From Bacteroidales bacterium (GTDB taxonomy: Bacteria > Bacteroidota > Bacteroidia > Bacteroidales > F082), in assembly GCA_015491905.1 (NCBI GenBank), contig WGGC01000066.1:3833-67832 (forward strand): a DNA stretch of 64,000 nt, in the 5' to 3' direction. Positions 3,811-31,128 of this stretch are shown piece after piece; positions within the stretch are counted from its first letter, which is position 1; each line of letters begins with the position of its first letter. The position numbers and the translations under genes were made by a program. Under the pieces are notes generated by a model that worked only from the letters and a program-made list of their open reading frames with translations, had not been told where the DNA came from and searched no databases.

Positions 3811-3882
3811 GGCCTCATAGTTCAAGGGATAGAATAGGAGTTTCCTAAACTCTAGATCCAGGTTCGAGTCCTGGTGAGGCTA
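3811..3882 (+). tRNA. tRNA-Arg(CCT)
   Basis: Cloverleaf: acceptor GGCCTCA/TGAGGCT, anticodon arm GGAGT-TTCCTAA-ACTCT, T arm CAGG-TTCGAGT-CCTG. Confidence 0.95.
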
Positions 3883-3885
3883 CAA
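3867..3885 (+). repeat. attL core (3' end of tRNA-Arg, from the T-loop)
   Basis: Identical 19-mer at 11089-11107. Confidence 0.93.
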
Positions 3886-3940
3886 ATAAAAAACCATAAA
3901 CTTTTGATTTATAGTGTAAAATATATTTAACCGGTTGTTG

Positions 3941-3964
3941 TTGCACCGACTATTGCACCGACTT
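3941..3964 (+). repeat. Tandem integrase arm-type sites TTGCACCGAC-ta-TTGCACCGAC-tt
   Basis: 12-bp period; 23/24 identical copy at 10929-10952 in the same orientation. Confidence 0.8.
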
Positions 3965-4027
3965 CCCCGATTATTCCCGGATTTTTGACCTTTTGGGGGC
4001 GGTATCTATTCAATGAAATTTAATATC

Positions 4028-4091
4028 TTTGTCCTGCCTTGTGATTGAGGTAAAAGTTCAGGGGTAACCTTCCGGGGTTGCCCTTTTTGTT
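4028..4091 (+). ncRNA. Conserved 64-bp module: small hairpin plus intrinsic terminator (candidate sRNA or element-borne tRNA terminator)
   Basis: TATCTTTG at 4024-4031; stems TGCCT/AGGTA and GGGTAACCT/GGGTTGCCC followed by TTTTTGTT; 56/64 identical copy at 11249-11312. Confidence 0.45.
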
Positions 4092-4359: not shown

Positions 4360-5703
4360 CTATTTCTGTTGTGCTAAAAATCGTTTTAACTCTTGTAGTC
4401 TTTTGAGGTATGGTAAAAAGGTTCGTTTACCGTTGTTTGCTTTCACGGTGGCAAAGTGGCTTTCAATAAATAGTGAACAATCTGTTATTGTAGTGTCCCT
4501 GTTTAGCTTTAAGGGTTGGGCTGGTATTTCAATATTTGAAAAGTAGTTTTCCAGTTCTGTAATGTTATTGTCCCAGCTTTTGGATTTTTCTTTTACAATC
4601 TGTTCAACTGGTTCAGGTTTAAATACCTCAACCTTGGGTAACGGTTCAGGCTTTGGTGCTTTCTTTATGTCCTGCTTTCTGAATAATTGCCAATCCTGTT
4701 TAATTAGATAGTCTGCAATATCTTTGCCTTTCTCTTTGTCCTGCTGTGGGGCTAATCGCTCCAATAAGTCTGAAACGTGAAAGTATGTACCCTGTAAACG
4801 CTTTTGTATTTCGGTGGCTTTATTGCTCCATAACTCAAAGGCTTTGCCGTCTTTTGATAGGTCAGGAAACAAATAAACATTCCTGCCTTTTAATGCCTGG
4901 CACTTGTTGAGGTTTAAACTGCTCAAATTGTAAACTGCCAACCAGAGTAAGTTTGTAGGTTGTTCAGGAAAACCAAAATACAACGTGCTATAAACAGCCG
5001 TTTTAGGTGCTTCAACCAATGCAATAGGGTTGTGTGGGTATTTACTTAAAAGGTGTTCACCAAACAAACAGGAAACCTTTATTTCGTTCTTATTGTATGC
5101 TTCCAACCAGCCGGGCAACGGCTTATTGTTTCGGGTGTGGTGCTTTTCAATTATTGAGTGTAAAAAGTCTGTGCCGGTGGTGTGGTTCTGTTCGTTAAAC
5201 TGTTTTACTTGTATTGCTCTAATATTACCCCGAACATCAATAAAAGGAAATGTTACCGCCCCTTTACGGTATCCGTTCTGCACCGTACCTAAACGGTACA
5301 ATGAAACAATCTTTTCAATGTCCTTTACTTCAAAAGGGAAGGCAACCTTTGCAAGTAAGTTTTGAATAAATACGTTCTGTTCATATCCCGAAAGTGTTTG
5401 TTTAAATACCTCAATTGGAATGAATACAGGTTTTGGCTGTGGTTTCTTTTGTTGTTTTGGTAGCTGTGGTTTCCGGTCTATTTTATTACCGTGTTCCTGC
5501 TCCCATATTGCTTTTGCGTAACCATCTTTGTACGGGTTGAGGTGGTAAGAACATTTACTTTCACGGTCGCAACGTCCGTACTGTTCGGGTAAATAGTCGC
5601 CCGTTTCTGTATCAATGTATTTAACAAATGACTTTTTACCACACAGGGGGCAGATAAACTTTCTGCTTCCATGTTCTAATTTGTATCTATACTCTGTATT
5701 CAT
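4360..5703 (-). CDS. Zn-ribbon plus TOPRIM-like protein (DUF6371/PG0870-related family), putative primase
   Basis: N-terminal CPLCGKK...CDRESKCSYH zinc ribbon; ALVEAPKTA and YLFPD acidic TOPRIM-type motifs; DIADYL; C-terminal helical domain. Confidence 0.7.
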   Translation of the reverse strand: MNTEYRYKLEHGSRKFICPLCGKKSFVKYIDTETGDYLPEQYGRCDRESKCSYHLNPYKDGYAKAIWEQEHGNKIDRKPQLPKQQKKPQPKPVFIPIEVFKQTLSGYEQNVFIQNLLAKVAFPFEVKDIEKIVSLYRLGTVQNGYRKGAVTFPFIDVRGNIRAIQVKQFNEQNHTTGTDFLHSIIEKHHTRNNKPLPGWLEAYNKNEIKVSCLFGEHLLSKYPHNPIALVEAPKTAVYSTLYFGFPEQPTNLLWLAVYNLSSLNLNKCQALKGRNVYLFPDLSKDGKAFELWSNKATEIQKRLQGTYFHVSDLLERLAPQQDKEKGKDIADYLIKQDWQLFRKQDIKKAPKPEPLPKVEVFKPEPVEQIVKEKSKSWDNNITELENYFSNIEIPAQPLKLNRDTTITDCSLFIESHFATVKANNGKRTFLPYLKRLQELKRFLAQQK

Positions 5704-5815: not shown

Positions 5816-7303
5816 TTACCAATCCGAATTATTATTTTCCACATAAGCCGCCAGTTTATTCCCCGTAACTCTTTCAATTAAAACCCCAAACCCTTTTAGT
5901 CGTTTAATAAAATTAGACTTGTTCACGGGCTTAAAGCCATCTTCTATACAATAGTTTCTGTATTCTATGTATAGTTCTTTTATCAGCCTGTAATCAGTGG
6001 GGCTGCTTTGGTAGTTGTTTTCATCAATAAACATCTTTACACTATCGGACTGGCTTTTGTATTGCTCAACTGCTTGTTTTACTGCCCCACTATCTGTAAA
6101 GCTTTTTTGCTTCAATAGTCTATTAAGCCCATCCAGTACCCAATTAAAAACGCCTGAAAGTTCATTTTCAATTATTTTGGCATGTAGCTGTTTATCCTGT
6201 TCATGTTCGGGTATGGTAACATCAAAAGGAATAATCAAAAAACGTCTGAAATAAGCGTCTGTATGCTCAACATCTTTGGGTAACTCATTACTGTTAAATA
6301 TTAGTTTGGCATATTGTTTCAAAATAAATGGCTGCCCATACGGCAAGCGGGCTTCAACTGGTTCACCTGAAACCAATTGTTTAAATAAACTACTTTCCAA
6401 TTTTCCGTTAATCTCACTGCCATAATTTACCAACTTATTAGCCAGTTTCGCCCTGAAATAACCGTTATCATTTGTAAGGCTTTGCAATGAATAATTACTT
6501 GTATTCTCTGCTCCCAATAAAGCGCTCACAACTTCAAAAAACACGCTTTTCCCATTTGCTCCAGTACCGTAAAGTATTAACGCCTTTTCTTCTTTCAGTC
6601 TATTACTACCGTGCTTTATAAAAACAAAACCCAAATATTCAGCTAAAACCTTTTGGCGTTCTATGTCGGGCAATACCCTGTTTAAATAGGCTTCAAATAT
6701 CGGTGCTTTTGCCTGTGGGTCATATTCAAATGGTAATTGATAGGTGAGAAAATCTGAACGGTCAAACGGTCTTAATTGCGTACCTTTTGGGCTAACTTCA
6801 AACGTGCCGTTTTGCAAATTGATTAATACCTTATTTACCAAAGGTGGTTTTAGTTCAAGGTATGCAGTACCTAAAAACTGTTCAAAAAGTTCTTTTCTGA
6901 ATTTATAATACCGTGCTGAAAAGGTAGGAACGCCCATTTTTTCGGCTGCCTTTCCTAAAAACTTTTGAAATGTTTCTTTGTCCAGTTCAGCCCAGTGAGT
7001 ACCATTGAATAAATAAATGAAATCGTGGTTCTTGCATAAGCCCCAACGGTTGTTTTCTGCTTTCCGTAAGACGTTTTCAATAGATAAAACAGTATAATGC
7101 TTATTTGTTAGTTTAAAGTTTTCGGCACTGTGAGGGTTTGCCATTGCTTCAAAGTCCAACGGTTCAAACTGTTCAAGTAATTGGCTTAATATTTCATCGT
7201 GTGGGGTTGCTGTGGTATTTGTTATTTCCTGAACATGGTTTAAAATCGGTTTAGATTGCTGCAAGTCCTCGCCAAAATCTGGGTTTATCTTAATGGCTTC
7301 CAT
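5816..7303 (-). CDS. P4-family D5_N + SF3 replicative helicase (usually annotated 'phage/plasmid primase, P4 family')
   Basis: INLQNGT, Walker A GTGANGKS, FKQLVSGEPVEAR, IFNSNELP, AYFRRFLIIPF. Start moved to ATG 7303 (MEAIKINP), which follows AAAGGAG. Confidence 0.9.
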   Translation of the reverse strand: MEAIKINPDFGEDLQQSKPILNHVQEITNTTATPHDEILSQLLEQFEPLDFEAMANPHSAENFKLTNKHYTVLSIENVLRKAENNRWGLCKNHDFIYLFNGTHWAELDKETFQKFLGKAAEKMGVPTFSARYYKFRKELFEQFLGTAYLELKPPLVNKVLINLQNGTFEVSPKGTQLRPFDRSDFLTYQLPFEYDPQAKAPIFEAYLNRVLPDIERQKVLAEYLGFVFIKHGSNRLKEEKALILYGTGANGKSVFFEVVSALLGAENTSNYSLQSLTNDNGYFRAKLANKLVNYGSEINGKLESSLFKQLVSGEPVEARLPYGQPFILKQYAKLIFNSNELPKDVEHTDAYFRRFLIIPFDVTIPEHEQDKQLHAKIIENELSGVFNWVLDGLNRLLKQKSFTDSGAVKQAVEQYKSQSDSVKMFIDENNYQSSPTDYRLIKELYIEYRNYCIEDGFKPVNKSNFIKRLKGFGVLIERVTGNKLAAYVENNNSDW

Positions 7304-7532
7304 GGTTATCTCCTTTCTGCAAAGTGTACAACTGTGGGTTGTTCTCAATTAAAACCTTCGGCATCCCTATCCAAAGGCCACGGCCATAATTCAAGGTGTA
7401 ACCGTTTTCAGTTTCAATAAAATAATGTTTTTTGCCGGAAGGAAGTCCCAGCTTTTTAGGCATGTTTACTTGGAATTTTTTCTTATCTTTGCGCTGGTTC
7501 TGCCTGTCTTCGGATGGGCTTTTTTTATTCAT
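7290..7532 (-). CDS. Small basic hypothetical protein (80 aa), translationally coupled
   Basis: Overlaps the upstream stop and the downstream start; AAAGGAGG 8 nt before its ATG. Confidence 0.55.
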   Translation of the reverse strand: MNKKSPSEDRQNQRKDKKKFQVNMPKKLGLPSGKKHYFIETENGYTLNYGRGLWIGMPKVLIENNPQLYTLQKGDNHGSH

Positions 7533-7860
7533 CTCTCTGTCCTCCTTTGTTTATTAGTGCTTGTTCGACATCTGATCTCCTATATCGCACCTTACTGCCT
7601 ATTCTGACAGGCTTTAGTACATTTTTGTTATCCCAATGCCATAGAGTTGTGAGAGTTACTGATAGCATTTCTGCAACTTGTTGCCGGGTTAATAGTTCGT
7701 CCGGTTCATTTTGGGCTTGTATGCGGGCTTCAACCTCTTGTGCGGTATCTTGTACCAATTTATCGGCAAAGCTTATAAGATCGCTTCCGCTTACTTGTAA
7801 TGTGATGCTTTTTGCAATTTCCGGATATTGCTTTAATATTTTTATATCTATTGTTTTCAT
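7525..7860 (-). CDS. Helix-turn-helix (MerR/Xis-type, HTH_17) DNA-binding protein
   Basis: LLTRQQVAEMLSVTLTTLWHWDNKNVLKPVRIGSKVRYRRSDVE. Start set at MKTIDIK (7860), right after the upstream stop. Confidence 0.85.
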   Translation of the reverse strand: MKTIDIKILKQYPEIAKSITLQVSGSDLISFADKLVQDTAQEVEARIQAQNEPDELLTRQQVAEMLSVTLTTLWHWDNKNVLKPVRIGSKVRYRRSDVEQALINKGGQRDE

Positions 7861-7861
7861 T

Positions 7862-8089
7862 TTATTTTTCTTTGGTTGGTTCATGTTTACTACTTAATAA
7901 CCATTTGTCAATCTCTAAGCGATCGAAAAACAGAATCTTTCCTCCAGGTCGGCTATAAGGGACAACCCCCTTTCTTACCAACACATATAGATAGGCTTTA
8001 CTAATTCCAGTATAGGCGGCAAGTTCATCCATGTTAAACACCCTTTTTTGAGAGAGGTCGATTTCCGTAGTTTTAAGTTGTTTTTCCAT
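7862..8089 (-). CDS. Excisionase/AlpA-like HTH protein
   Basis: FNMDELAAYTGISKAYLYVLVRKGVVPYSRPGGKILFFDRLEIDKWL. Confidence 0.88.
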   Translation of the reverse strand: MEKQLKTTEIDLSQKRVFNMDELAAYTGISKAYLYVLVRKGVVPYSRPGGKILFFDRLEIDKWLLSSKHEPTKEK

Positions 8090-8225: not shown

Positions 8226-8233
8226 TATATTTG
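8226..8233 (+). promoter_or_regulatory. -7 promoter element TATATTTG for the lipoprotein gene
   Basis: TAnnTTTG consensus 10 nt before the ATG at 8244. Confidence 0.5.
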
Positions 8234-8243: not shown

Positions 8244-8540
8244 ATGAAAAAGTTAATTATTATTATTGCAATTGCAGCTTTGACAAGTTGTGTAATGCCG
8301 TCCAGGATGGCAAAAATTCAAATGGGATGGGATAAACAGCAAGTAGAACATCTGATGGGTAAACCTGTTGAGGTAAGCGCACAGGGACATATTACAGCGT
8401 TTAGATACCTAATGTTTGATGAATATTACTATGTTACATTCTACGATAATAAAGTAGCAAGTTTTGGAAAATTAGGCGACTTCAACTCAACAAAGAACCC
8501 AACTCTTGATTTAAATGTTACAACTAAAAAGAGGAAATAA
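8244..8540 (+). CDS. Small lipoprotein, SmpA/BamE-like fold
   Basis: Signal peptide MKKLIIIIAIAALTS-C with lipobox; IQMGWDKQQVEHLMGKP fits the 'l..Gmtk.qV..llG.P' motif. Confidence 0.7.
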   Translation: MKKLIIIIAIAALTSCVMPSRMAKIQMGWDKQQVEHLMGKPVEVSAQGHITAFRYLMFDEYYYVTFYDNKVASFGKLGDFNSTKNPTLDLNVTTKKRK

Positions 8541-8657: not shown

Positions 8658-9209
8658 ATGGGATTAGTAGATGGACTTATCGGATCGGGATTGTCAATTT
8701 TTGGAATGGCAAAAGGTGCAAAAGCCGGGAGGCAATTACAAAACGCTCAAGAAGGAGTTTTAGGCAGACAAAATAGTCTTGCGGATTGGTATAACAATCA
8801 GTCGAACAAAAGCTTTTTTGATACACAAGCAGCTCAATCAGGGTTAGCACGCATCAGAGACCAATACAAAAACTCTCTCGATCACATTAACAGCAACGGT
8901 GTTCAGGGCGGGGCTACAACGGAAGCTAAAGTAGCAGCTAAAAGTTCTTTGCAGGATTCTTATAACAAGTCTCTAAGCAACTTAGTCGGTTACGGAACAC
9001 AGTATCAGAATAACATGAAAAGAGCTTATGGAGGCACACTGCAAGGGATGTATCAGGGTAACAACGCTACTTACATGCCAGCTATTCGCTCGTGGGGGAA
9101 TCTTGCTAACAAAGGAGCAGATATAGCCCAGAAAGGGTTTGCATCAATGGAACTACCTACAGGAAAAGATGCTGGTTCTCTTGCGTCTATTCTTAAATTT
9201 TTATTTTAA
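8658..9209 (+). CDS. Gly/Ala/Gln/Asn-rich protein resembling phage virion ejection/DNA-pilot proteins
   Basis: N-terminus MGLVDGLIGSGLSIFGMAKGAKAG, then polar helical segment with WY and GGATTEAKVAAK. ORF track starts at TTG 8643; ATG 8658 is preferred. Functional call is by resemblance only. Confidence 0.55.
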   Translation: MGLVDGLIGSGLSIFGMAKGAKAGRQLQNAQEGVLGRQNSLADWYNNQSNKSFFDTQAAQSGLARIRDQYKNSLDHINSNGVQGGATTEAKVAAKSSLQDSYNKSLSNLVGYGTQYQNNMKRAYGGTLQGMYQGNNATYMPAIRSWGNLANKGADIAQKGFASMELPTGKDAGSLASILKFLF

Positions 9210-9305: not shown

Positions 9306-9551
9306 TCAAATAGGACGGCTCGAAAATGAGCTTTCCTGTTCAGCAGCAGAAAGTAACTCTATCAAGTCCGTATAAGTTGTGAAAACGTCACCAGTATTTG
9401 TCCTTTGGGGTTTTAAGTCGAGGAAAGCCCTGAACATATCTGTTAAATTTTCTTTGTGCCATGACATGTTTGCCTGGTCTTTCATTTCTTCAATCAATGA
9501 AATAACCTTTTCTTTACTACTGTTTTCCGTTTGTTTTTTTGCTTGTTCCAT
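9306..9551 (-). CDS. Small hypothetical protein (81 aa) downstream of the integrase
   Basis: Clean ORF co-oriented with int; predicted helical. Confidence 0.55.
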   Translation of the reverse strand: MEQAKKQTENSSKEKVISLIEEMKDQANMSWHKENLTDMFRAFLDLKPQRTNTGDVFTTYTDLIELLSAAEQESSFSSRPI

Positions 9552-9605: not shown

Positions 9606-10883
9606 TTATTTTGCAACTTTCAAATGGCTCCCGTTGTTCAGCCACATATCCCGCATCTTTTCAGCGTGTTCCTGCGGGGTTACTTTGATATATTTCAAAA
9701 ATGCGCTTTCCGTACGGTGTCCTGTTACGGCCATTATTGTAATTGAGGGGATGCCGGCCTTGTACATGTTGGTAGCAAAAGAACGCCGGGCGGTGTGGGT
9801 GCTAATCATTTGCCATTTGGGTTTTATAGTGGTTTCCAGTTTGCCTCCTCGTGTAAATTGTTTAGTGATTGCCTCTTTAAAGTCGGTCATCCGTGCAACC
9901 TCTTTCAAATATTCGTTGAATTTTTGGTTTGAAATAGGCCGGGGTAAATTGCCCTCGTATTTGTTCAGGATATTTTCAACTGGGGGATGTATAGGTATAA
10001 CAACCGGTTTGTTTGTCTTTTGTTGTTTTAGGGTGATAAATCCGTTTTCTATATTTTCCGGCCTTACTTTATGCCAGTCTGAAAATCTTAATCCAGTCCA
10101 GCAGCCGATTAAAAATAAGTCCCGTACCCGGTCAAGTTTTGGTTTATTTGACAAGTCCAAATTTTGGATTTTATCCAGTTCCGAAAGTGACAAATAAATA
10201 TTGTCTGTTTCCTCTGCAATAGCCTTAAAACGTTTACTTTTAAAAGCCAGGTTTGTATTTATACCCCTATCAGTGGCTTGGTTCAAAACAATTTTAAGGA
10301 AACGTATTTTTTTACCAATAGTATTTTGTGCTAAATTCCTGCTTTTCAAATATTTGATAAAGTCATTATAAAAATCCAGGTCAATATCTTTAAAATCAAT
10401 TTTCTTACCTCTGCTTTTGGCGTATTCTTTCAGGTAACCAAACGTTACATGAAATTCACGTTTTGACTGATAAGATATTTGCTTATCTGTCTTTTGGTTT
10501 ATCCGGTGGTCAAGGTTGTCTATTACAGACTGGAAAAACTCAAAAAGGGTCATTTTCTTTTCCTTGTATTTATCAGGAAAACGATATTTATCAATGACTG
10601 TATTTAACCATTCGGACGTCGGGGGTTCTTTCAGGGCTTTGTATGCCCCTATTATGGTGGCCTCTAACTTGTCAAGGTACTGTTTATCCTTGTCCTTATC
10701 GACGTATCTGGCCTGCTTATTTATAGTGTGGGTTTCGTTGCTGAAATGTCCCGGCAATACTTCAAGGCCTGATTTTGCATAAAGGTTGATTTTCTTTCCG
10801 TGATAAAATCTTACCCTTACATTAATTTTTTTTGTCGGGTCGGTCTTCTTTGATGTCCTGATGTAAAAATAGACTGTCGCCAT
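9606..10883 (-). CDS. Tyrosine recombinase/integrase (Bacteroidetes type with arm-binding and SAM-like domains)
   Basis: Catalytic set intact: GLRFSD (R), QKT (K), HTARR (HxxR), GHR (H), FLKYI (Y). Confidence 0.96.
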   Translation of the reverse strand: MATVYFYIRTSKKTDPTKKINVRVRFYHGKKINLYAKSGLEVLPGHFSNETHTINKQARYVDKDKDKQYLDKLEATIIGAYKALKEPPTSEWLNTVIDKYRFPDKYKEKKMTLFEFFQSVIDNLDHRINQKTDKQISYQSKREFHVTFGYLKEYAKSRGKKIDFKDIDLDFYNDFIKYLKSRNLAQNTIGKKIRFLKIVLNQATDRGINTNLAFKSKRFKAIAEETDNIYLSLSELDKIQNLDLSNKPKLDRVRDLFLIGCWTGLRFSDWHKVRPENIENGFITLKQQKTNKPVVIPIHPPVENILNKYEGNLPRPISNQKFNEYLKEVARMTDFKEAITKQFTRGGKLETTIKPKWQMISTHTARRSFATNMYKAGIPSITIMAVTGHRTESAFLKYIKVTPQEHAEKMRDMWLNNGSHLKVAK

Positions 10884-10928: not shown

Positions 10929-10952
10929 TTGCACCGACCATTGCACCGACTT
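10929..10952 (+). repeat. Tandem arm-type sites TTGCACCGAC-ca-TTGCACCGAC-tt near attR
   Basis: Near-identical to 3941-3964. Confidence 0.8.
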
Positions 10953-11088
10953 TTATTTAATTTCGTTTAATCTTTTGATACTTAATTAACCTTTTATTTA
11001 TTTTTAACATTGCTGTTAATAACTGATTAACTGCACTTTTATACCTATTTTCAGCACATTACATATCTCGTGAAATTAATAGGGTTAT

Positions 11089-11107
11089 AGTCCTGGTGAG
11101 GCTACAA
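11089..11107 (+). repeat. attR core (duplicate of the tRNA-Arg 3' end)
   Basis: Identical to 3867-3885. Confidence 0.93.
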
Positions 11108-11312
11108 CTTAAAAATATAAAGTAGTGTATTACAATTATTTATAGTACACTGCTATTTATATTGTAACCACCAATGTAACCACCACCTTAATTATTCCCT
11201 GAATATTGCTGTATTTTTACCGTGGTGGGTTAAATGGAATTTAGTTCTTTTGTCATGCCTTGTGATTAAGGCAAAAGTTCAGGGATAACCTTTCAGGATT
11301 GACCTTTTTGTT
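11108..11312 (+). mobile_element. Left end of a second, decayed sister element
   Basis: Same layout and spacing as 3886-4091: tandem TGTAACCACCA repeats (11163-11173, 11175-11185), ATTATTCCC, and the 64-bp module at offset 160 versus 161 bp from att. Confidence 0.75.
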
Positions 11313-15296: not shown

Positions 15297-16477
15297 GCTT
15301 CTTTTAAAATGAGATTTGATTTTGATTTTTCATCCATTCTTAATTTCATGGCAACATATGTGGTAAGAAAGCCAACAAGAGTGAAAATACCGAGAATGAG
15401 AAATTCTTTTTCCACACTTGCCAAAGGAGTTCCTATTTGATAAAGTTTGAAAAAAGCATGCAGGAAATGGGTGTAGGGAATAAACTGTGCCCAAAGTTGA
15501 TCAAAGAAAGGCATTCCCATTACAGGAAAAGTAAATCCACTAAAGATAAAAGCCGGAGAATTGTAAAACAGGGCCAGGTCGAGTGCAACAATTTCTTCCT
15601 TTACAACTGCCGAAAGGGCCATGCCTAATGTGGCATTTGCCAGTACAAACATAAAAAAAAGCAAGAGCGTTTCACCGATTTTATCTTGATAAGGAATTCC
15701 GAAAAGGTTGAAAAGGATGCTGATAAAGAAAACAATCGTCATCCCGATTCCTGTATAAACCAATAGTTTACCAAAGATAATATTCAAAACATTGTGCTTT
15801 GAGGTTTCTTGTAAATCATCCTGCCTGTTGTTCTTATATTCTTTATTCAAGGAGCGTGTCCCCATGAAAAAAACAATCATTTGAAGTAAAACAGTGAGTA
15901 ATCCCGGCACGAGATAATACAAATAGTTGTACTCTGGATTAAATAAAGAATGTGTTTTTACCGCTATAGGTAGTGCCAGTCGTCGTGCCTGATAAGGCGT
16001 TAACCCTTGTGCTACAAGTTTTTTAACTAAAACACCACCTGAAACTGTTTCAATCAGGTGAAAAGCATTTCGCTTTAAGATCTTTCCGTAAATGATGTTT
16101 GTTGAATTTGTCAATACGCTTATTTCGGTGTTTTTTCCTTTAAAAACATCTTTTTCAAGTGCCGGTGGTATGCAGTATACAGCCTTTTCGGGATAGTGTA
16201 GAAAGTAATTTTTCAGTTGTGCTTCCGAATGTAAATAACGTGTTACTTTCGTGTCGGGCGAGGCGTTGATAAAGTTGATAATGGTTCGGGAAAGTTTGGA
16301 ATGATCCTGATCCAATACCGCCACCGGAATTTTGCGTAATGCTCCGGCAGAATAAATGCCAGCCAAAAGCGTGAATACAATCAGCGGAACCCACAACACA
16401 ACCACTCTCGAATTACGGCTACTAACCATCATGTGCCATTCACGTTTTGCCACATTAAAAATTGCAGATATTTTCAT
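15293..16477 (-). CDS. ABC-2 type permease (YbhR/YbhS-like)
   Basis: IPVAVLDQDHSKLSR, FNPEYNYLYYLVPG, FIFSGFTFP. Confidence 0.88.
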   Translation of the reverse strand: MKISAIFNVAKREWHMMVSSRNSRVVVLWVPLIVFTLLAGIYSAGALRKIPVAVLDQDHSKLSRTIINFINASPDTKVTRYLHSEAQLKNYFLHYPEKAVYCIPPALEKDVFKGKNTEISVLTNSTNIIYGKILKRNAFHLIETVSGGVLVKKLVAQGLTPYQARRLALPIAVKTHSLFNPEYNYLYYLVPGLLTVLLQMIVFFMGTRSLNKEYKNNRQDDLQETSKHNVLNIIFGKLLVYTGIGMTIVFFISILFNLFGIPYQDKIGETLLLFFMFVLANATLGMALSAVVKEEIVALDLALFYNSPAFIFSGFTFPVMGMPFFDQLWAQFIPYTHFLHAFFKLYQIGTPLASVEKEFLILGIFTLVGFLTTYVAMKLRMDEKSKSNLILKEA

Positions 16478-16543
16478 TTATTTTATTTGTTTAAGATATT
16501 ACAACCCACCTGATCAAGGATATTTCAGCCTCTACCTTAACAA

Positions 16544-17524
16544 TTATAAAGTAATCTGAACAGTCATCCCCGGACGTAAACCATGAATAGGCTGTACCGG
16601 TTTAAGCCTGACTTCAAAGGTTTTTAAATCATATTCTCCTTTTGCTTTGGTAGGTACCCAGGTAGCAAAGTTGGCCATAGATGCGAGATAATAAACTTTG
16701 AATCGAAAAGTCTTTCCGCCAATGCCGGGAACTTTTCCATTCAGGATATTCCCTTTTTTGAAATGGTTTAACCGGTCTTCTCTCACGTTGATAACAGCGT
16801 AAATTTTATCAGGACGCATAATAGTAAGTATCGGATATCCGGCTTTCATTACTTCGCCTTCTTCACCAATTTTTTCACTGATTTCACCGGAAACCGGAGC
16901 AATAATTTTCAACTGTTTGTAATAGGCTTGTGCCTCTTTATAAACCCCTGTTGCCGTCTCAAGTTTACCTTTTACAATTTGAAGATCCTCGTGTGTAGCC
17001 CCGTTTTTTGCCATCTGATAAGAGGATTGGGCTGCTTCCATTTGATTTTTTGCCGCGGTGTGTTTAAAATTCAGTTCATCCATCTCCTGTTTAGAGATAA
17101 TACTATCGGCATACAAAACCCGATATCTTTTATAGGTCTTATCGACAAATTCAAACTGGCTTCTGGCTATCAGGTACTGATTGCGTGCTGCATGGATCAG
17201 TTCTTCACGTGTACCTTTTTCAACTTTCTTCATCAGTGATTCAGTAGCCTCTTTTATGCCCTGGGCTTGTGTTAGTTTGGCATTCATAATATTTGCTTCG
17301 AGCGTAGCCAGTAATTGTCCTTTTTGAACATGATCACCTAAACCAACATATAGGCTGTCGATTCTTCCGGGAATCTCAGAAGAAACATCAACAGTTGGAG
17401 CTTCAAATGTTCCTGTAATAATGTTTTTAGGTTTTTGATTTTCTCTTGTAATCATCCATAAAAGGGCAATTAGCACAACCGCAACAGGAATGGATAGAGC
17501 AAGAATACTTTTGTTTTTTTTCAT
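16544..17524 (-). CDS. HlyD-family membrane fusion protein
   Basis: N-terminal TM, VSSEIPGRI...GDHVQKGQLL, coiled coil, IIAPVSGEI, FEVRLKP...LRPGMTV. Confidence 0.92.
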   Translation of the reverse strand: MKKNKSILALSIPVAVVLIALLWMITRENQKPKNIITGTFEAPTVDVSSEIPGRIDSLYVGLGDHVQKGQLLATLEANIMNAKLTQAQGIKEATESLMKKVEKGTREELIHAARNQYLIARSQFEFVDKTYKRYRVLYADSIISKQEMDELNFKHTAAKNQMEAAQSSYQMAKNGATHEDLQIVKGKLETATGVYKEAQAYYKQLKIIAPVSGEISEKIGEEGEVMKAGYPILTIMRPDKIYAVINVREDRLNHFKKGNILNGKVPGIGGKTFRFKVYYLASMANFATWVPTKAKGEYDLKTFEVRLKPVQPIHGLRPGMTVQITL

Positions 17525-17531
17525 GGTTTTA

Positions 17532-19022
17532 TTACTTATTGTTTTGATTATTACGACTTAAAATTTCAACAGCCTTTTCCGCCTGGCCGGTGGCAAGGTA
17601 AATGTCTGCCAAAGCCAGATTATAATTGTAAAGGCTGTGCAGGCGTTCAATACGGATTTTTTCATCTAGTAACCGGGCATCAATTACATCAATCGATTTT
17701 GAAAGTCCTTCCTGAAAACGTTTTTCAGTAATTTTCAGGTTCTCGGACGATAAAGCCAGTGTGGGTTTCATTTTCAGATAACGATCTTTAGCATCTAACG
17801 CTTTTCGGTACGACTGGTTTATCCACAAATCAATCTGTTCGTTTGCGTATTTTCGTGCATTGATAATTTGTTTTTGTAAGTGCCGGGTGGCTTTTATCCG
17901 GTTTATTTTTTTAAAGCCGTTAAATAAATTGATTTTTGCCTGAATACCAACGGAAACGGGTGGCATTATCACCGGATATTGATCCTGAAAAGCACTGTAT
18001 TCGCCCCATGCAGCTATTTGTGGGAGAAATGCCGAACGGTCAACTGCTTTTTTCTGTTTAACCATATTCTCCTGCTGATCAATGAGTTTAAAAACCGGCT
18101 GATACAGTTTTGCGTCTTGTTGCAGATTTTCAAGATTTAACGGCACAGCCATGAACTTTAAAGTATTTGTTAACGTAAGAGGAATGTCCGGTTTTAACCC
18201 CATATTTGTTTTTAATGCCATAAGCGCAAGCGATTGTTTGTTTTGATCATCCGATAAATCTCGTTCAGCATTGGCAACCGCCACTTTAGCACGCAAAAGC
18301 TCTTGTTTATTGATTATTCCAAGTTTGTAAGCCTTTTCGGCCTGGCTTTCATGCTTTCGCATTCCTCCTAAAACATTTAGCCTTGTTTTAACTACTTGTT
18401 TAAGTAATGCAACAGCATAATAGTTTTTAATGGTTTCGCGAGTTAATTTGTTTTCAACTTCTTTTAATTCTAGTCGTGCGCTTTCCGCATCAGCCCTGGC
18501 AAAACGTAAACTTGCTGTGATTTTTCCTCCCGAATAAATAGGCTGGATAGCTGTTATGTTCAGGTTGGGATATTCCTGTTTGTCGATAACAATATTCGAT
18601 AGGGGCATCTTGCTTAATGTCTGCATGAGGCTGCCAAGAATCGGAAGCATGTTCGCCGGAACAGCACCACCTTGTGCTAATGCCTGACTAATCTGTTGCA
18701 TATTTTCATTTAACGAATTTTTTATTGGGCTCATATTTATTTCAGGGTTTCTGTTCAAATAAGTGTAACCAGCATTGGCATTAATACTTGGAAAGTAATT
18801 TCCTTTGGCCGCTTTTATCAAATATTCTTTTTGCCGTACGATCTGGCGATACTGGTTCACCTGACTATTGTTGTTCAACGCACTATCTACTGCTGCCTGA
18901 AGGTTTATTGTCAGAGGGGTGTTCTGTGCAATAAGTGGCGGTATCCCTAAAAAGCTGATAAGTAGAAAAAATGCGCATAAAACACATGCCCGTGAATGAA
19001 ATTTTGCTTTTGTCTGGTTCAT
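17532..19022 (-). CDS. TolC-family outer membrane efflux protein
   Basis: Signal peptide; AVDSALNNN, YFPSINANA, QPIYSGGK, FQEGLSKSIDVIDAR. Confidence 0.9.
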   Translation of the reverse strand: MNQTKAKFHSRACVLCAFFLLISFLGIPPLIAQNTPLTINLQAAVDSALNNNSQVNQYRQIVRQKEYLIKAAKGNYFPSINANAGYTYLNRNPEINMSPIKNSLNENMQQISQALAQGGAVPANMLPILGSLMQTLSKMPLSNIVIDKQEYPNLNITAIQPIYSGGKITASLRFARADAESARLELKEVENKLTRETIKNYYAVALLKQVVKTRLNVLGGMRKHESQAEKAYKLGIINKQELLRAKVAVANAERDLSDDQNKQSLALMALKTNMGLKPDIPLTLTNTLKFMAVPLNLENLQQDAKLYQPVFKLIDQQENMVKQKKAVDRSAFLPQIAAWGEYSAFQDQYPVIMPPVSVGIQAKINLFNGFKKINRIKATRHLQKQIINARKYANEQIDLWINQSYRKALDAKDRYLKMKPTLALSSENLKITEKRFQEGLSKSIDVIDARLLDEKIRIERLHSLYNYNLALADIYLATGQAEKAVEILSRNNQNNK

Positions 19023-19428
19023 AATTTTACGATTATTAATTTCGTTATAATGGCTCTCGTTTTAGCAAAAAACATGCCAAATAGATTAACTAGACTAAAA
19101 ATGTTTTATGGTCAGTATTAGAATTAAAGTTTTATTAAAATGGCGCATGGATTTATTATGCAGTCCAGATACAATTATCCTCTTATGTTGGCGCCTAAAA
19201 GTTAACAAGATGAAAGTCTCGTCAAGTCAAGATAATTTCAGGATGACTAGTTATAACTACAAACCGATATAGTTGATTATTTTTTTTATAATCGTTATGT
19301 CATATCTTAAAAAATTAGTGCAATGCAACTGACAAAGGCTGGTATTAATGAAAAAACTGTCATAGTCAATTGACAAAATTACCGAATTAAACTAAATTAG
19401 TTTATTGGTCAATAATAATTTTTATGTT

Positions 19429-20007
19429 TTATGCAGCCATTCCTTTTATGAGGATATTTATAAGGTCGTCGAAGTGCGGGCTTAGGCTGTCATATTTATT
19501 TTGAAGAAAGAACGGGATTTCCAATCCTTTTAGTACCATAATAAAAACATCCAGTAACACATCAATTTTTTCACTTTGATCGGCAAAGAAACCTGCTTCA
19601 ATTCCTTGTTTAATAATATTTTTAAGTTGTTCCTTTTCCCAATGATCCAAATCTATTCGCAGTTGATCTACAAATTCAAAGTGTTCGAAAAAATCAGCCT
19701 TCAGTGTTTCGTGATAATTGGATGCTTTGTACAAAATAGACATACGTGTCAATAAATATTTTTTAATCTTTTCTTTTGCATTTAGTTTAGGATCGGTAAC
19801 AACCATTGCCAGTTCTTTTTTGAGATTTTTTAATTCAAGAGCTACTACTTCCGTAAACAGTTCTTCCTTACTGGCAAAATGATAATAAAGTGAGCCTTTG
19901 GCCTTATGTGCCGTACGTGCAATTTCATCCATAGAAGTTTTGTAAAAGCCATAACGACTGAATATCCGGGAGGCCACACTAAGTATTTTTTCTTTTGTAT
20001 TATCCAC
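19429..20007 (-). CDS. TetR/AcrR-family transcriptional regulator
   Basis: GFYKTSMDEIARTAHKAKGSLYYHFASKEELF HTH; GTG start; TATATTTG -7 element at 20061-20068 (minus strand). Confidence 0.93.
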   Translation of the reverse strand: MDNTKEKILSVASRIFSRYGFYKTSMDEIARTAHKAKGSLYYHFASKEELFTEVVALELKNLKKELAMVVTDPKLNAKEKIKKYLLTRMSILYKASNYHETLKADFFEHFEFVDQLRIDLDHWEKEQLKNIIKQGIEAGFFADQSEKIDVLLDVFIMVLKGLEIPFFLQNKYDSLSPHFDDLINILIKGMAA

Positions 20008-20224
20008 TGATGGTTTGTTAAAGTTACTTTTTCAGGAATGATTAATATTGTTTTGCAGGTCAAATATAAATATATTTATTATAGTTTCGTTTCTTAAGGA
20101 ATCATTTATATTGTTTTTCCTTAACTTAAGCAGGAACTCATCTTGTTCTAATAATACAGGCATAACACATTTTCATGTTTGGTGTTGGGTTCTTACAGAA
20201 TAATATACTATTTTATTCAATTGT

Positions 20225-20522
20225 ATTCCTGTTATGGCCATTACCGTAAGCCCGGAATACAGGCTTTATACATATTAGTTGTGAACGAACGCAGGACAGG
20301 GGTGATGTTACCAGCTATTATTTGTGTTTTATGTTTGGTTCTGTTTTACGGCTTCGTGTAACCTGCTTTTGTTATGGATTCTTTGAATTCTGCCAGTTTT
20401 GCAATCTGTTTTAGGTACTCGTTAAGCTTCTGGTTGCTTATTATCGGGGGTAAATCACCGTTTCTCAAAAAGTTAATAAAGCCATCGTAAAAGTCTAAAT
20501 CAACATCTTTAAAATCAATATC
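20225..20522 (-). pseudogene. Internally deleted, frameshifted tyrosine integrase paralogous to 9606-10883
   Basis: Hand translation DIDFKDVDLDFYDGFINFL|RNGDLPPIISNQKLNEYLKQIAKLAEFKESITK...RSFTTNMYKA.../TVMAITG versus intact IDFKDIDLDFYNDFIKYL...ISNQKFNEYLK...RSFATNMYKA...IMAVTG. Confidence 0.85.
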
Positions 20523-20564
20523 ACAAGTTTAAAATTCGGGTGTAAAGAATGTGCAATATGTGTT

Positions 20565-20612
20565 TGTAAAACAAAAGGTTACAAAATTTAATTTGTAACC
20601 TTTTGTTTTACA
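20565..20612 (-). terminator. 21-bp perfect inverted repeat, terminator of tRNA-Lys
   Basis: TGTAAAACAAAAGGTTACAAA / TTTGTAACCTTTTGTTTTACA with a 6-nt loop, abutting the tRNA 3' end. Confidence 0.75.
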
Positions 20613-20613
20613 G

Positions 20614-20686
<73 letters not shown>

Positions 20687-20939
20687 AAATATACTTTTGA
20701 AAAGAACTAATTCTTTTAAGAGAGTTGGCAAAAGTAAGAATTTTTTAGATTTTAAGACTAAATATATTTTGTATTTTTATTTTCTGATTTTATATGTACC
20801 GGCATTTTGCTTATTACATCTTTTGACCCTAAAAAATAATGTACTTTTGTGTCAAGATAGTATTTTATTGGTTTATAATTTCATATTTTAATTGATTATT
20901 TGTAGTTAACCATATATTCTTTTTTATAAAAAATATCCT

Positions 20940-22031
20940 GTGGCAACAAAAAAAAATAAATCGGCATTAAAAATACAACCGGGTATTGATAAACCCGGCA
21001 TGATAAATCCTTCGTTACAGAATAAGATAAATAACTTAAAAAAGGAAAAACCTAATGTGGACATTCTTTTTAACGGTATTAAAAGTGGTGATCGTACTTT
21101 ACTAAGCCGTGCAATTACTCTTATTGAAAGTAAACTTCCGGAAGACAGGAAAGCTGCAAATGAACTGATAAAAAGGTGTCTCCCATATTCCGGAAAATCT
21201 TTCCGAATTGGAATAACAGGTACTCCGGGTGCAGGAAAAAGTACATTTATAGAATCTTTTGGATTATATCTGATTGAAAAAGGGAATAATATTGCTGTAC
21301 TTGCCATTGACCCAACCAGCTCACGTACTAAGGGTAGTATTCTTGGTGACAAAACCCGTATGGAGTCTTTAAGCGTCAGTAAAAATGCTTTTATCCGGCC
21401 TTCTGCCAGCGGAGGAAGTCTGGGCGGAGTATCAAGAAGTACCAGAGAAAGTATAATTTTATGTGAGGCGGCAGGGTTTAATATAATTTTTGTTGAAACG
21501 GTTGGGGTTGGTCAATCTGAAACAGAGGTTTCTAAAATGGTTGATTTCTTTTTGCTGTTGATGATTACCGGTGCCGGTGATGAGCTACAAGGAATAAAAA
21601 GAGGAATTATGGAGATGGCTGATATGATTGTTATAAACAAAGCTGATGGAGAAAACCTAAATAAAGCAATCCAAACAAGTTCTCAGTATAAAAAGGCTAT
21701 TCATCTTTTTCCTGCTTCTCCAAGTGGTTGGAAGCCGGATGTAATTACAGTATCATCATTATACCATAAAGGGTTAAACAATTTGTGGAATCATATTGAA
21801 AAATATCAAAAAATCACTTTGCAAAATGGTTTTTTTAAGAAAAATAGAATTCAACAGCTTCTTTATGTTTTTGAAGAAACTTTGCAACAAGGTGTTTTTG
21901 AACATTTTTTTAATCAGCAAAAAATTAAAAAACAAATTGAGGATATTAAATCCAAAATTCTTAATGGAGAAACTTCTCCTTATGAGGCAGCAGAATTATT
22001 ATTAGAGATTATTTTTAAAGAAAAAAAATAA
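20940..22031 (+). CDS. meaB: Methylmalonyl-CoA mutase-associated GTPase
   Basis: GITGTPGAGKST, AVLAIDPTS, GSILGDKTRM, VETVGVGQSE, GDELQGIKRGIME, INKAD. Confidence 0.95.
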   Translation: MATKKNKSALKIQPGIDKPGMINPSLQNKINNLKKEKPNVDILFNGIKSGDRTLLSRAITLIESKLPEDRKAANELIKRCLPYSGKSFRIGITGTPGAGKSTFIESFGLYLIEKGNNIAVLAIDPTSSRTKGSILGDKTRMESLSVSKNAFIRPSASGGSLGGVSRSTRESIILCEAAGFNIIFVETVGVGQSETEVSKMVDFFLLLMITGAGDELQGIKRGIMEMADMIVINKADGENLNKAIQTSSQYKKAIHLFPASPSGWKPDVITVSSLYHKGLNNLWNHIEKYQKITLQNGFFKKNRIQQLLYVFEETLQQGVFEHFFNQQKIKKQIEDIKSKILNGETSPYEAAELLLEIIFKEKK

Positions 22032-22034
22032 ATT

Positions 22035-22466: not shown

Positions 22467-22559
22467 ACTTTTAATAAAGTTGTTATTAATCAATTATTTT
22501 AACAGGTTTCTCATATTAAAATAATTTTTATTTTTAGCATTCATCGAGTAATAAATTTC

Positions 22560-31106: not shown

Positions 31107-31128
31107 AGCAATGTAAACCAAAATGTTA

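What the first reader, a model, noticed from the sequence alone, without database searches (positions are those of the whole stretch)
8658..9209. A lone virion ejection/DNA-pilot-like protein carried by a capsid-less element
Seen: a 183-aa ORF with a Gly-rich amphipathic N-terminus (GLVDGLIGSGLSIFGMAKGAKAG), a Q/N/A/S-rich helical body, a WY motif and GGATTEAKVAAK, with no Cys. Established: this layout is typical of podovirus ejection proteins (P22 gp7-like) and microvirus pilot proteins. From recall, not a search: it closely resembles uncharacterised proteins in Bacteroides/Prevotella prophage morphogenesis modules (G..GSIFGG..A.KA...WY...AQ...GGT.E..AAAK). It is the only structural-looking gene here. 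Inference: the element loads its own ejectosome subunit into helper virions, either to deliver its DNA or alter host range, or as a dominant-negative mimic that poisons helper particles. This would be a satellite strategy distinct from capsid-size redirection, TerS swapping or tail hijacking.
Basis: partly seen in the sequence, partly recalled or inferred. Interest (0 to 1): 0.92.

Follow-up and report, generated by a model that had tools for sequence, protein, structure and literature searches.

The report
Phage internal-virion gene on capsid-less island
A small integrated mobile element in a Bacteroidota genome has no capsid or packaging genes. It carries one intact gene copied from short-tailed phages, where that gene sits beside the portal and a giant injected protein, so the element probably interferes with or exploits phage DNA delivery.

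Summary
The ORF (8658-9209, +, 183 aa) is real and has the described motifs. It lies in a 7.2 kb tRNA-Arg island with an integrase, two HTH_17 proteins, a D5-type helicase and a DUF6371 protein, and no capsid, terminase or relaxase.

It has no Pfam, PHROG, NCBIfam, PADLOC or PDB match. A profile search still finds a family of 585 cluster representatives, all about 150-250 aa.

Outside the island, every copy I could place (at least 17 contexts) is the first gene of a conserved run: small, then medium (178-452 aa), then large or giant "polyvalent" protein (up to 5553 aa). In three genomes this run lies next to the portal gene; the one portal scanned against Pfam is P22-like. One of them is the cultured Bacteroides phage BKO1-TP3.

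The island copies form one clade nested among phage copies up to 75% identical. None of 80 related islands carries the gene, so it is accessory cargo.

Two otherwise identical island copies differ only in two short patches, and one patch is in this gene.

Homology to P22 gp7 and T7 gp14 was tested and not found, so the "ejection protein" label rests on synteny. The satellite-ejectosome mechanism is untested, and exclusion or interference is at least as likely.

The parts
3811..3883 (+). tRNA-Arg (CCT), the integration target; its 3' end holds the attL core
   Evidence: ARAGORN; direct repeat with 11083-11115
3867..3885 (.). attL core, 19 bp AGTCCTGGTGAGGCTACAA
   Evidence: Exact shared core inside repeat D4 (3861-3893 vs 11083-11115, spacing 7222)
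4360..5703 (-). Zn_ribbon_16 / DUF6371 / DUF6965 protein (447 aa), candidate primase partner of the helicase
   Evidence: Pfam 4e-38, 1e-23 and 1e-22; present in 71 of 80 related islands
5816..7348 (-). D5_N / DUF5906 SF3-type helicase (P4 alpha-like C-terminal part)
   Evidence: Pfam; PHROG 'DNA primase' families at 1e-85; 326 related loci across Bacteroidota
7525..7884 (-). HTH_17 (excisionase/AlpA-like) protein
   Evidence: Pfam 1.5e-9; phrog_66 excisionase/regulator
7862..8089 (-). Second HTH_17 (excisionase/AlpA-like) protein, 75 aa
   Evidence: Pfam 1.5e-8
8226..8233 (+). Bacteroidota-type -7 promoter box TATATTTG, ending 10 bp before the lipoprotein ATG (motif start 18 bp upstream); candidate promoter of the lipoprotein/target pair
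   Evidence: Pattern search and sequence. The motif is not enriched in the window, so this is weak evidence.
8244..8540 (+). 98-aa lipoprotein (MKKLIIIIAIAALTSC lipobox), upstream partner of the target gene
   Evidence: Sequence; weak BamE hit at 2e-4, below the Pfam cut-off; absent from island variant L008
8578..8633 (+). Upstream segment shared with the closest phage copy (L033), captured together with the gene
   Evidence: Local alignment score 33 against a shuffle mean of 18.4 +/- 2.7, 0 of 500 shuffles as high; conserved in islands L008 and L034
8658..9209 (+). The finding: a 183-aa all-helical protein, member of an unannotated phage family (first gene of the small/medium/giant trio, which lies beside the portal in three genomes)
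8861..8915 (+). Hypervariable patch 1 (codons 68-86, end of helix 2 just before the conserved GAT.E motif)
   Evidence: 18 of the 32 differences between the window and the 7313-bp contig L001 fall here
9306..9551 (-). 81-aa acidic ORF of unknown function, convergent with the target gene; holds hypervariable patch 2 (9375-9470)
   Evidence: The other 14 of 32 differences fall here, and the L001 allele equals the L008/L034 allele; no family hit
9606..10883 (-). Tyrosine integrase (425 aa)
   Evidence: Phage_int_SAM_5 plus Phage_integrase; phrog_1 at 3.5e-36
11089..11107 (.). attR core, 19 bp identical to attL

Best explanation
The gene is a full-length copy of a podovirus morphogenesis gene. A 7.2 kb tRNA-Arg integrative, satellite-like island captured it, together with about 55 bp of its upstream region, as accessory cargo.

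In phages. This family is the first gene of a conserved run: small (159-250 aa), then medium (178-452 aa), then large or giant polyvalent protein. In three genomes the run lies beside the portal gene; the one portal scanned against Pfam is P22-like. The small protein has a hydrophobic or Gly-rich N-terminal segment followed by three long helices. By position and build it is most likely an internal virion protein. It would leave the capsid with the giant protein and help form the DNA-delivery conduit through the cell envelope, as P22 gp7 and T7 gp14 do. This step is inferred.

On the island. My preferred mechanism is interference. The resident copy is made in the host, probably together with the neighbouring lipoprotein. 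It is targeted to the envelope by its N-terminal segment. It is 64-75% identical to the phage subunit, so it could co-assemble with the incoming or newly made medium and giant partners. That would jam the conduit or the loading of internal proteins, as a superinfection-exclusion or dominant-negative decoy.

What is shown: the gene's origin, synteny, intactness, accessory status and allelic hypervariability. What is inferred: the virion location and the interference mechanism.

Rough odds. The family is a virion-internal or ejection protein: about 0.6. Interference or exclusion is the island role: about 0.35.
For: Phage origin and synteny:
- The run small, medium, then large or giant is seen for P0011/L002 (209, 399 and 4447 aa; the giant matches DarB-like phrog_10089, and a region at about 980-1200 matches endolysin, minor-head and virion-structural PHROGs).
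- It is also seen for P0161/L012 (250, 382 and 4105 aa, the giant carrying MuF_C and ART/Kinase-PolyVal domains), P0140, P0008, P0007, P0006 and P0005, and L120 (224, 411 and >2193 aa).
- It recurs in prophages of a same-order genome.
- It recurs in IMG/VR record G001, which is 46.7 kb and 100% complete by CheckV. There the trio is followed directly by the portal (PF16510 P22_portal, 6e-38), TerL and an SU10-type major capsid protein.
- It recurs in cultured Bacteroides phage BKO1-TP3, as gp57, gp56, gp55 (5553 aa) and gp54 portal.
- The medium proteins are homologous to each other.

Giant proteins as ejected cargo: in podovirus phi24B a polyvalent protein was found in virions by proteomics and proposed as an ejection protein (bioRxiv 10.64898/2026.04.10.717836).

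Membrane-seeking N-terminus: Kyte-Doolittle hydropathy reaches about 2.0 in many phage members.

The island copy is nested in a phage clade with 100/99 support.

Accessory cargo: 0 of 80 related islands carry it. Hits in same-genus genomes cover only other parts of the query, and none covers this gene.

Exclusion-like features:
- It is co-oriented with a lipoprotein gene behind a -7 box, on the strand opposite the island core operon.
- All 32 differences between two 7.3 kb island copies lie in two patches, one of them in this gene.
- The ejection conduit is a proven target of prophage exclusion: P22 SieA escape mutations map to gp16 and gp20 (PMC10883804).
- The host assembly has no P22-like portal, no medium-protein gene and no second copy of this gene.
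Against: - No sequence or fold link to any proven ejection protein. hhalign gives 2.6% to the P22 gp7 family and 0.4% to T7 gp14. Foldseek gives nothing below E=0.04; T7 gp14-type 'internal virion protein B' models appear only at E 0.14-0.9.
- No virion proteomics exists for any family member.
- The island protein's N-terminal segment is only weakly hydrophobic (Kyte-Doolittle 1.16 over 19 residues), so membrane insertion is uncertain.
- The gene kept about 55 bp of the phage's own upstream region. This could mean expression in step with phage late genes, which fits an assembly-stage role rather than constitutive exclusion.
- There is no PADLOC match.
- The low dN/dS (0.04) may have accumulated in phages. 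dS for this gene (2.9) far exceeds dS for the neighbouring integrase (0.40), which points to allele exchange.
- The lipoprotein gene is missing in island variant L008, so the two genes are not an obligate pair.
Confidence: 0.35

Rival explanations
1. Satellite piracy. The island is a helper-dependent satellite. During helper infection it makes its own version of the small internal or ejection protein, which is built into helper-made particles. This would ensure or retarget delivery of island DNA, for example by escaping exclusion systems aimed at the helper's allele or by changing host range.
For: - The island has the minimal satellite gene set (integrase, two Xis/AlpA-like proteins, helicase, primase-like protein) and no capsid, terminase or relaxase. 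This matches marine VEIME satellites, which are packaged as concatemers in full-size helper capsids without structural genes of their own (PMC9618062).
- The protein is full length and keeps every invariant family residue.
- It is 64-75% identical to phage copies, so it is plausibly still competent to assemble.
- It kept the phage's upstream segment.
- Patch-wise allele exchange with phage-like alleles shows that island and phage DNA meet in the same cell.
Against: - The gene is absent from all 80 related islands, so it is not part of the family's core life cycle.
- A satellite packaged in helper capsids would get the helper's own ejection proteins for free.
- It has the medium and giant partners nowhere in the host assembly and so depends on the helper's.
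- No helper has been identified.
Confidence: 0.3
2. The family is not a conduit or ejection protein. It is instead a morphogenetic helper for the giant polyvalent protein, such as a membrane or portal-proximal anchor, chaperone or loading factor. The island copy would then alter loading of the giant anti-restriction protein into particles. That would disarm the phage's counter-defence or free capsid volume.
For: - The gene is always linked to, and co-oriented with, the medium and giant genes, often with gaps of only 4-15 bp.
- It shows no homology to known ejection proteins.
- The giant proteins carry DarB-like, MuF_C and ART/kinase polyvalent domains, and their packaging must need dedicated factors.
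Against: - In prophage L029 and contig L006 the partner is only about 716-770 aa, not a giant polyvalent protein. The family therefore does not depend on a giant cargo.
- A strongly hydrophobic N-terminal segment suits a membrane-inserting ejected protein better than a cytoplasmic chaperone.
Confidence: 0.15
3. Neutral hitch-hiker. The gene is a phage fragment picked up by illegitimate recombination and has no role for the island.
For: - It is rare. It occurs in four island variants of one clade only, in 3 of 401 phylum genomes, and in none of 185,579 species genomes by pattern scan.
- The selection signal may have been inherited from phages.
Against: - The ORF is intact and full length in all four island variants, which have diverged to 83% protein and 75% DNA identity. 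No frameshift or stop is present, and dN/dS is 0.04.
- The upstream region is conserved among islands.
- The differences between near-identical islands are concentrated in this gene, which is not expected for junk.
Confidence: 0.1

Closest known systems
P22 ejection protein gp7 (Pfam PF25688), with gp20 and gp16
   Same: - It is the first and smallest of three consecutive genes ordered small, medium, large in the late region of a phage with a P22-type portal.
- Size is similar: 159-250 aa against 229 aa.
- Both are rich in Ala, Gly, Gln, Asn and Ser, are helical, and carry a Gly-rich hydrophobic segment. In gp7 this segment is C-terminal (AIGGGIGLLGSLF); here it is N-terminal.
   Different: - There is no detectable homology. 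Pfam gives no hit, and hhalign gives 2.6%.
- Here the trio lies upstream of the portal rather than after the head-completion genes.
- The third member is usually a 3000-5500 aa polyvalent protein rather than the 609-aa gp16.
T7 internal virion proteins gp14, gp15 and gp16
   Same: - The gene order is small, medium, large.
- The large member carries a cell-wall-degrading domain. The L002 giant matches endolysin and virion-structural PHROGs at about residues 980-1200.
- Weak Foldseek matches to gp14-type 'internal virion protein B' models have TM-scores of about 0.4.
   Different: - hhalign gives 0.4% probability.
- The fold matches are not significant (E 0.14-0.9).
- The phage lineage is different, with a P22-like portal and an SU10-like capsid protein.
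Capsid-less phage satellites: marine VEIMEs, P4-like elements and PICMI
   Same: - It is a small tRNA-integrated island.
- It has a tyrosine integrase, AlpA/Xis-like HTH proteins and a D5-type primase-helicase.
- It has no major capsid gene (PMC9618062).
   Different: - None of these is reported to carry an internal-virion or ejection-protein homologue. A literature search found no such paper.
- Neither packaging nor helper dependence has been shown for this island.
Prophage superinfection-exclusion proteins acting on DNA entry (P22 SieA; the lipoproteins T5 Llp and phi80 Cor)
   Same: - It is accessory cargo on an integrated element, and it faces away from the core operon.
- An envelope-targeted small protein is paired with a lipoprotein.
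- The ejection conduit is a proven exclusion target (PMC10883804).
   Different: - SieA is not a homologue of the ejection proteins it blocks. Here the candidate blocker would be a copy of the phage's own subunit, acting as a decoy or poison subunit.
- No phenotype is known.

Membership tests
P22 gp7 ejection protein family (PF25688) | Sequence match to the family profile | tested here: not met
   No PF25688 hit in the Pfam scan at E<=0.01. hhalign of the 150-sequence family profile against a 24-sequence gp7 alignment gives 2.6% probability. hmmsearch of the family profile against P22 gp7 gives no hit at E<=10.
P22 gp7 ejection protein family (PF25688) | First of three consecutive small/medium/large genes in the morphogenesis region of a phage with a P22-type portal | tested here: met
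   G001 has, in order, small, medium (366 aa), giant (3993 aa) and portal (PF16510, 6e-38). BKO1-TP3 has gp57, gp56, gp55 and the gp54 portal. The P22 gene order 7-20-16 is shown.
P22 gp7 ejection protein family (PF25688) | Present in the virion and released into the host envelope at infection | not testable with these tools
   No proteomics exists for any family member. The only indirect support is phi24B, where a giant polyvalent protein was found in virions.
T7 gp14 (internal virion protein B) | Sequence or fold similarity to gp14 | tested here: not met
   hhalign gives 0.4%. Foldseek against BFVD finds gp14-type models only at E 0.14-0.9 with TM-scores of about 0.4. Foldseek against PDB finds nothing below E=0.3.
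Microvirus DNA pilot protein (phiX174 H, gokushovirus VP2) | Encoded in a 4-7 kb ssDNA microvirus genome alongside the major capsid and replication-initiator genes | tested here: not met
   The short contigs carrying homologues are island fragments (integrase, HTH_17) or fragments of tailed-phage trios. Long contigs carry portal, TerL and giant polyvalent genes.
Phage satellite (P4-like, PICI or VEIME type) | Small integrative island with integrase, excisionase or AlpA-like regulator and its own replication genes, lacking a full virion gene set | tested here: met
   7.2 kb between 19-bp att cores at tRNA-Arg. Gene content from Pfam and PHROGs.
Phage satellite (P4-like, PICI or VEIME type) | Packaged in particles made by a helper phage | not testable with these tools
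The 7313-bp contig L001 is the integrated form, with tRNA and attR ends and no terminal overlap.
Phage satellite (P4-like, PICI or VEIME type) | Identifiable cognate helper | tested here: inconclusive
   The 96%-complete host assembly has no P22-like portal, medium-protein gene or second family copy. Phage copies up to 75% identical exist in metagenomes.
New family: small subunit of the small/medium/giant-polyvalent trio of P22-portal podoviruses | Conserved core: WY after helix 1, the G-A-T-x-E-A motif between helices 2 and 3, G-x-G-T-Q-Y-K in helix 3, and a hydrophobic or Gly-rich N-terminus | tested here: met
   W44, Y45, G85, A86, T87, E89, A93 and G111-Y116 are invariant in A1. G85, E89 and A93 are at least 90% conserved in 150 sequences. 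The profile scores the window gene at 5.5e-55.
Superinfection-exclusion or defence cargo | Match to a known defence family | tested here: not met
   PADLOC gives no hit for the target or the lipoprotein.
Superinfection-exclusion or defence cargo | Accessory, variable-slot location with allelic hypervariability | tested here: met
   0 of 80 related islands carry it, and the slot between integrase and xis holds unrelated ORFs elsewhere. All 32 differences between two island copies lie in two patches.

The most novel reading that the evidence does not exclude
A capsid-less satellite-like island acts on the DNA-delivery stage of its phage. It makes a divergent copy of the smallest internal-virion (ejectosome) subunit, which co-assembles with the phage's medium and giant partners. 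The result is either poisoning or blocking of the conduit, or re-equipping of the particles that carry the island. This would be a mode of satellite/phage conflict distinct from capsid resizing, terminase redirection and tail hijacking. It would also give a first functional handle on a 585-cluster phage family that currently has no annotation.
Probability: 0.3. Interest if true: 0.8.

Novelty: new variant of a known kind. Interest (0 to 1): 0.58.

Why it matters
Known satellites and defence islands act on capsid size, packaging specificity, tails, late transcription or nucleic acids. I found no report of one carrying a copy of an internal or ejection protein. If the island copy co-assembles with the phage machinery, it shows that the DNA-delivery conduit can be attacked or pirated by a mimic subunit.

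Separately, the work defines a large unannotated phage family and a conserved trio (small, medium, giant polyvalent protein), found beside the portal in three genomes, in Bacteroidota and other podoviruses. One carrier is a cultured gut Bacteroides phage, BKO1-TP3. That makes the packaging and ejection of giant polyvalent proteins experimentally approachable.

The two-patch hypervariability between otherwise identical islands marks candidate specificity determinants.

Tried and rejected
- Microvirus pilot idea. Homologues lie on 1.3-7.3 kb contigs, which suggested microviruses. These contigs are fragments of islands or tailed phages. Rejected.
- Terminase small subunit. I considered this because satellites often carry TerS. 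Many members have a strongly hydrophobic N-terminal segment. The gene is coupled to the medium and giant genes, not to TerL. An 83-85 aa ORF sits directly upstream of TerL instead. Rejected.
- Scaffold. A 287-aa gene precedes the major capsid gene in G001. Rejected.
- Homology to P22 gp7 and T7 gp14. None was detected.
- Structure searches. The PDB sequence profile search, Foldseek against PDB and Foldseek against BFVD gave nothing significant. The first AlphaFold2 run, with 11 sequences, was poor (pLDDT 50).
- PHROG scan of 150 members. It gave only 13 single-member hits to mixed families (tape measure, endolysin, internal virion protein and others), most likely compositional.
- tblastn of P0001, P0011 and P0161 against 50,697 phage records gave no match. 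Only the central family members P0027 and P0038 reached the Bacteroides phages.
- IMG/VR scans with A1 and P0011 found nothing. Alignment A3 was too diverse to seed a scan.
- The genome-contig scan with A1 found nothing.
- L001 as an excised circle. It has no terminal overlap and is the integrated form.
- Remnant of the medium gene downstream of the island copy. None was found.
- Pfam on the variable-slot ORFs of 10 related islands gave no hits.
I could not test for attP junctions or concatemers, for presence in virus-particle fractions, or for transcription.
Full report
**1. The observation**

Window 8658-9209 (+) is a stop-free 183-aa ORF, and the opposite strand is closed. All quoted motifs are present and there is no Cys. 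Close homologues all begin MGL(I/V)DGL, which fixes the ATG at 8658 as the start rather than the TTG at 8643.

AlphaFold2 with a 150-sequence alignment gives pLDDT 80.6. The model has three long helices (7-49, 57-84, 88-163), preceded by a low-confidence Gly-rich N-terminal segment.

**2. The element**

The gene lies in a 7.2 kb island bounded by a 19-bp direct repeat, AGTCCTGGTGAGGCTACAA, at 3867-3885 and 11089-11107. The left copy is the 3' end of tRNA-Arg(CCT).

On the minus strand the island encodes:
- a tyrosine integrase (9606-10883);
- an 81-aa ORF (9306-9551);
- two HTH_17 excisionase/AlpA-like proteins;
- an 80-aa ORF;
- a D5_N/DUF5906 helicase;
- a Zn_ribbon_16/DUF6371/DUF6965 protein.

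Only two genes are on the plus strand: a 98-aa lipoprotein (lipobox LTSC, 8244-8540) and the target. A Bacteroidota -7 box, TATATTTG, ends 10 bp before the lipoprotein ATG, with the motif start 18 bp upstream. No such box precedes the target, so the two are probably one transcript. This is weak evidence.

The island has no capsid, terminase, portal or relaxase gene.

The island family is widespread. A scan with the helicase found 326 related loci across Bacteroidota, with up to 89% identity in Maribacter, Algoriphagus, Pedobacter and Chitinophagaceae. None of the 80 fetched loci has the target, the lipoprotein or the 81-aa ORF. The slot between the integrase and xis holds unrelated same-strand ORFs of 190-660 aa with no Pfam match. 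The target is therefore accessory cargo, not a core gene.

**3. What the protein is**

It matches nothing in Pfam, PHROGs, NCBIfam, PADLOC or PDB. A word-indexed search found only 10 relatives. A full profile search found 585 cluster representatives at E<=1e-3 and 223 at E<=1e-10, all about 150-250 aa.

*Island contexts.* There are four, forming one clade at 83-96% protein identity:
- the window;
- L001, with the same gene order and 99.56% DNA identity;
- L008;
- L034.

*Phage contexts.* In all other placeable cases the gene is followed on the same strand, usually within a few bases, by a charged coiled-coil-like protein of 178-452 aa. These medium proteins are homologous among themselves. A large protein comes next:

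| Context | Small, medium, large (aa) | Notes |
|---|---|---|
| L002 | 209, 399, 4447 | Giant matches DarB-like phrog_10089; a region at about 980-1200 matches endolysin, minor-head and virion-structural PHROGs |
| L012 | 250, 382, 4105 | Giant has MuF_C and ART/Kinase-PolyVal domains |
| L014 | 243, 384, cut | |
| L006 | 175, 333, >716 | |
| L007, L009, L033, L117, L118 | fragments of the same arrangement | |
| L120 | 224, 411, >2193 | |
| L028 (prophage, same-order genome) | 165, 364, >2961 | |
| L029 (second prophage, same genome) | 177, 178, 770 | TerL on one side; a phrog_32516 protein and the portal on the other |
| G001 (IMG/VR, 46.7 kb, 100% complete by CheckV) | small, 366, 3993 | Then portal (PF16510 P22_portal, 6e-38), TerL, a scaffold-sized gene, an SU10-type major capsid protein and tail-fibre-like genes; no tape-measure-sized gene |
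| BKO1-TP3 (cultured temperate Bacteroides phage) | gp57 (159), gp56 (371), gp55 (5553, 'DarB-like') | Then gp54 portal; gp57 matches the family profile at 2.4e-40 |

Many phage members have a strongly hydrophobic N-terminal segment (Kyte-Doolittle hydropathy about 2.0). The island clade and its nearest phage relatives have a weaker Gly-rich one (1.2-1.5).

**4. Is it an ejection protein?**

*By homology: no.*
- Pfam has a gp7 family (PF25688), and it does not match.
- Profile-profile comparison with a gp7 alignment gives 2.6% probability.
- Comparison with T7 gp14 gives 0.4%.
- Foldseek finds nothing significant. T7 gp14-type 'internal virion protein B' models appear only at E 0.14-0.9.

*By position and build: yes.*
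- It is the smallest and first of a small/medium/large run, found beside the portal in three genomes, in a lineage with a P22-type portal. P22 itself has genes 7-20-16 in that order, and T7 has 14-15-16.
- The large partner carries a cell-wall-hydrolase-like region and polyvalent-protein domains.
- A polyvalent protein of this kind was detected in phi24B virions and proposed as an encapsidated ejection protein.

I put the internal-virion or ejection identity at about 0.6. No proteomics exists for any family member.

**5. How the island got it, and what is happening to it**

In a maximum-likelihood tree the four island copies sit inside a 100/99-supported clade with the phage-context copies P0005-P0008. 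The closest phage copy, P0005, is 75% identical in protein and 63.5% in DNA.

About 55 bp upstream of the gene is also shared with that phage. The alignment score is 33 against a shuffle mean of 18.4 +/- 2.7, and 0 of 500 shuffles score as high. That segment is conserved among islands. Similarity stops in the last 60 nt of the gene, and no remnant of the medium gene follows.

Between the window and L008, the target has dS 2.9, dN 0.118 and dN/dS 0.04. The adjacent integrase has dS 0.40 and dN/dS 0.16. The protein is therefore strongly constrained. Its synonymous divergence far exceeds that of the island backbone, which points to allele replacement, so part of the constraint signal may have been acquired in phages.

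The window and the 7313-bp contig L001 differ at only 32 positions, and all of them lie in two patches:
- 8861-8915, which covers target codons 68-86 at the end of helix 2, just before the conserved GAT.E motif;
- 9375-9470, in the convergent 81-aa ORF.

In the 81-aa ORF, the L001 allele equals the L008/L034 allele. In the target, the L001 allele (EQYKQSLANVNNQ) resembles the phage-context P0006 and the unplaced P0010.

These look like recombination tracts or population-level hypervariable sites. Assembly from a mixed population could produce the mosaic, but the alleles themselves would still be real.

**6. Host**

The 96%-complete assembly has a single copy of the family, no P22-type portal and no medium-protein gene. 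In the same-genus species genomes searched, hits cover only other parts of the 10 kb query and none covers the target. The family was found in 3 of 401 phylum genomes.

**7. Mechanism**

Any role should run through interaction with the cognate phage's medium and giant partners.

*Interference or exclusion, which I slightly prefer (0.35).* The arguments are:
- accessory-slot location;
- pairing with a lipoprotein, opposite to the core operon;
- allelic hypervariability;
- the precedent that the P22 ejection conduit is the target of prophage SieA.

- the island's satellite-like gene set, comparable to capsid-less VEIME satellites;
- the retained phage upstream segment;
- full-length conservation of the protein.

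*Further rivals.* A loader or anchor role for the giant protein gets 0.15. A neutral passenger gets 0.10.

**8. Novelty**

I found no report of a satellite or island carrying an internal-virion or ejection-protein homologue. The family and the conserved trio are unannotated. I rate this a new variant of a known kind.

Interest is moderate to high. However, function is inferred from synteny only, and the host is an uncultured environmental bacterium. BKO1-TP3 offers a cultured system in which to test the family.

**Limitations**

- Contexts are known for only about 20 of the 585 family clusters.

Noticed in passing
window 11083-11312 vs 3861-4091: After attR, about 230 bp repeats the layout of the island's left end at the same spacing (7221-7222 bp). 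This includes an 83-nt block at 83% identity (4009-4091 vs 11230-11312) and a 24-nt tandem 'TTGCACCGAC' pair (3941-3964 vs 10929-10952, 96%). It suggests stacked or former tandem elements at this tRNA site.
   Followed up: no
window 9306-9551 (-), patch 9375-9470: The 81-aa acidic ORF next to the target has no family match. It holds the second of only two variable patches between otherwise identical island copies (LKPQRTNTGDV vs SKPRKRYKGDV). It is as island-specific as the target, since it is absent from all 80 related islands.
   Followed up: partly
L035-L114 (genome contigs): The integrase, variable ORF, xis, D5 helicase and DUF6371 island family occurs at 326 loci across Bacteroidota. Helicases are up to 89% identical between different orders (Maribacter, Algoriphagus, Pedobacter, Chitinophagaceae), which implies recent wide horizontal spread. 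Its variable-slot ORFs (190-660 aa; one cluster of 19) have no Pfam match.
   Followed up: partly
L002:11912-20630; L012:12210-20753; L115:5630-22291; G001 15310-27291: Giant polyvalent proteins of 3993-5553 aa (DarB-like, InPase/Eco57I/SNF2, MuF_C, ART/Kinase-PolyVal domains) lie immediately upstream of the portal in G001 and BKO1-TP3 (the portal region of L002 and L012 was not fetched). They are always preceded by the same two unannotated genes.
   Followed up: partly
L006 (JAGHAB010000138.1): A 3.9 kb contig binned as 'Candidatus Aenigmarchaeota archaeon' carries the small/medium/large phage trio (P0008, 54% identical to the window protein). It is probably a mis-binned bacteriophage fragment.
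   Followed up: no
L116 (PQ571269) 23818-33318: Bacteroides phage BKO1-TP3 has a reverse transcriptase gene next to a 2638-aa hypothetical protein. This looks like a diversity-generating retroelement acting on a tail or receptor-binding protein.
   Followed up: no
G410:C1:541866-561682 (same-genus genome): A relative has pieces of a related island near a copy of the same tRNA: DUF6371 at 68% identity, xis at 72% and integrase at 75%. They are spread over about 20 kb, which suggests a larger or composite element at the same tRNA-Arg site.
   Followed up: no
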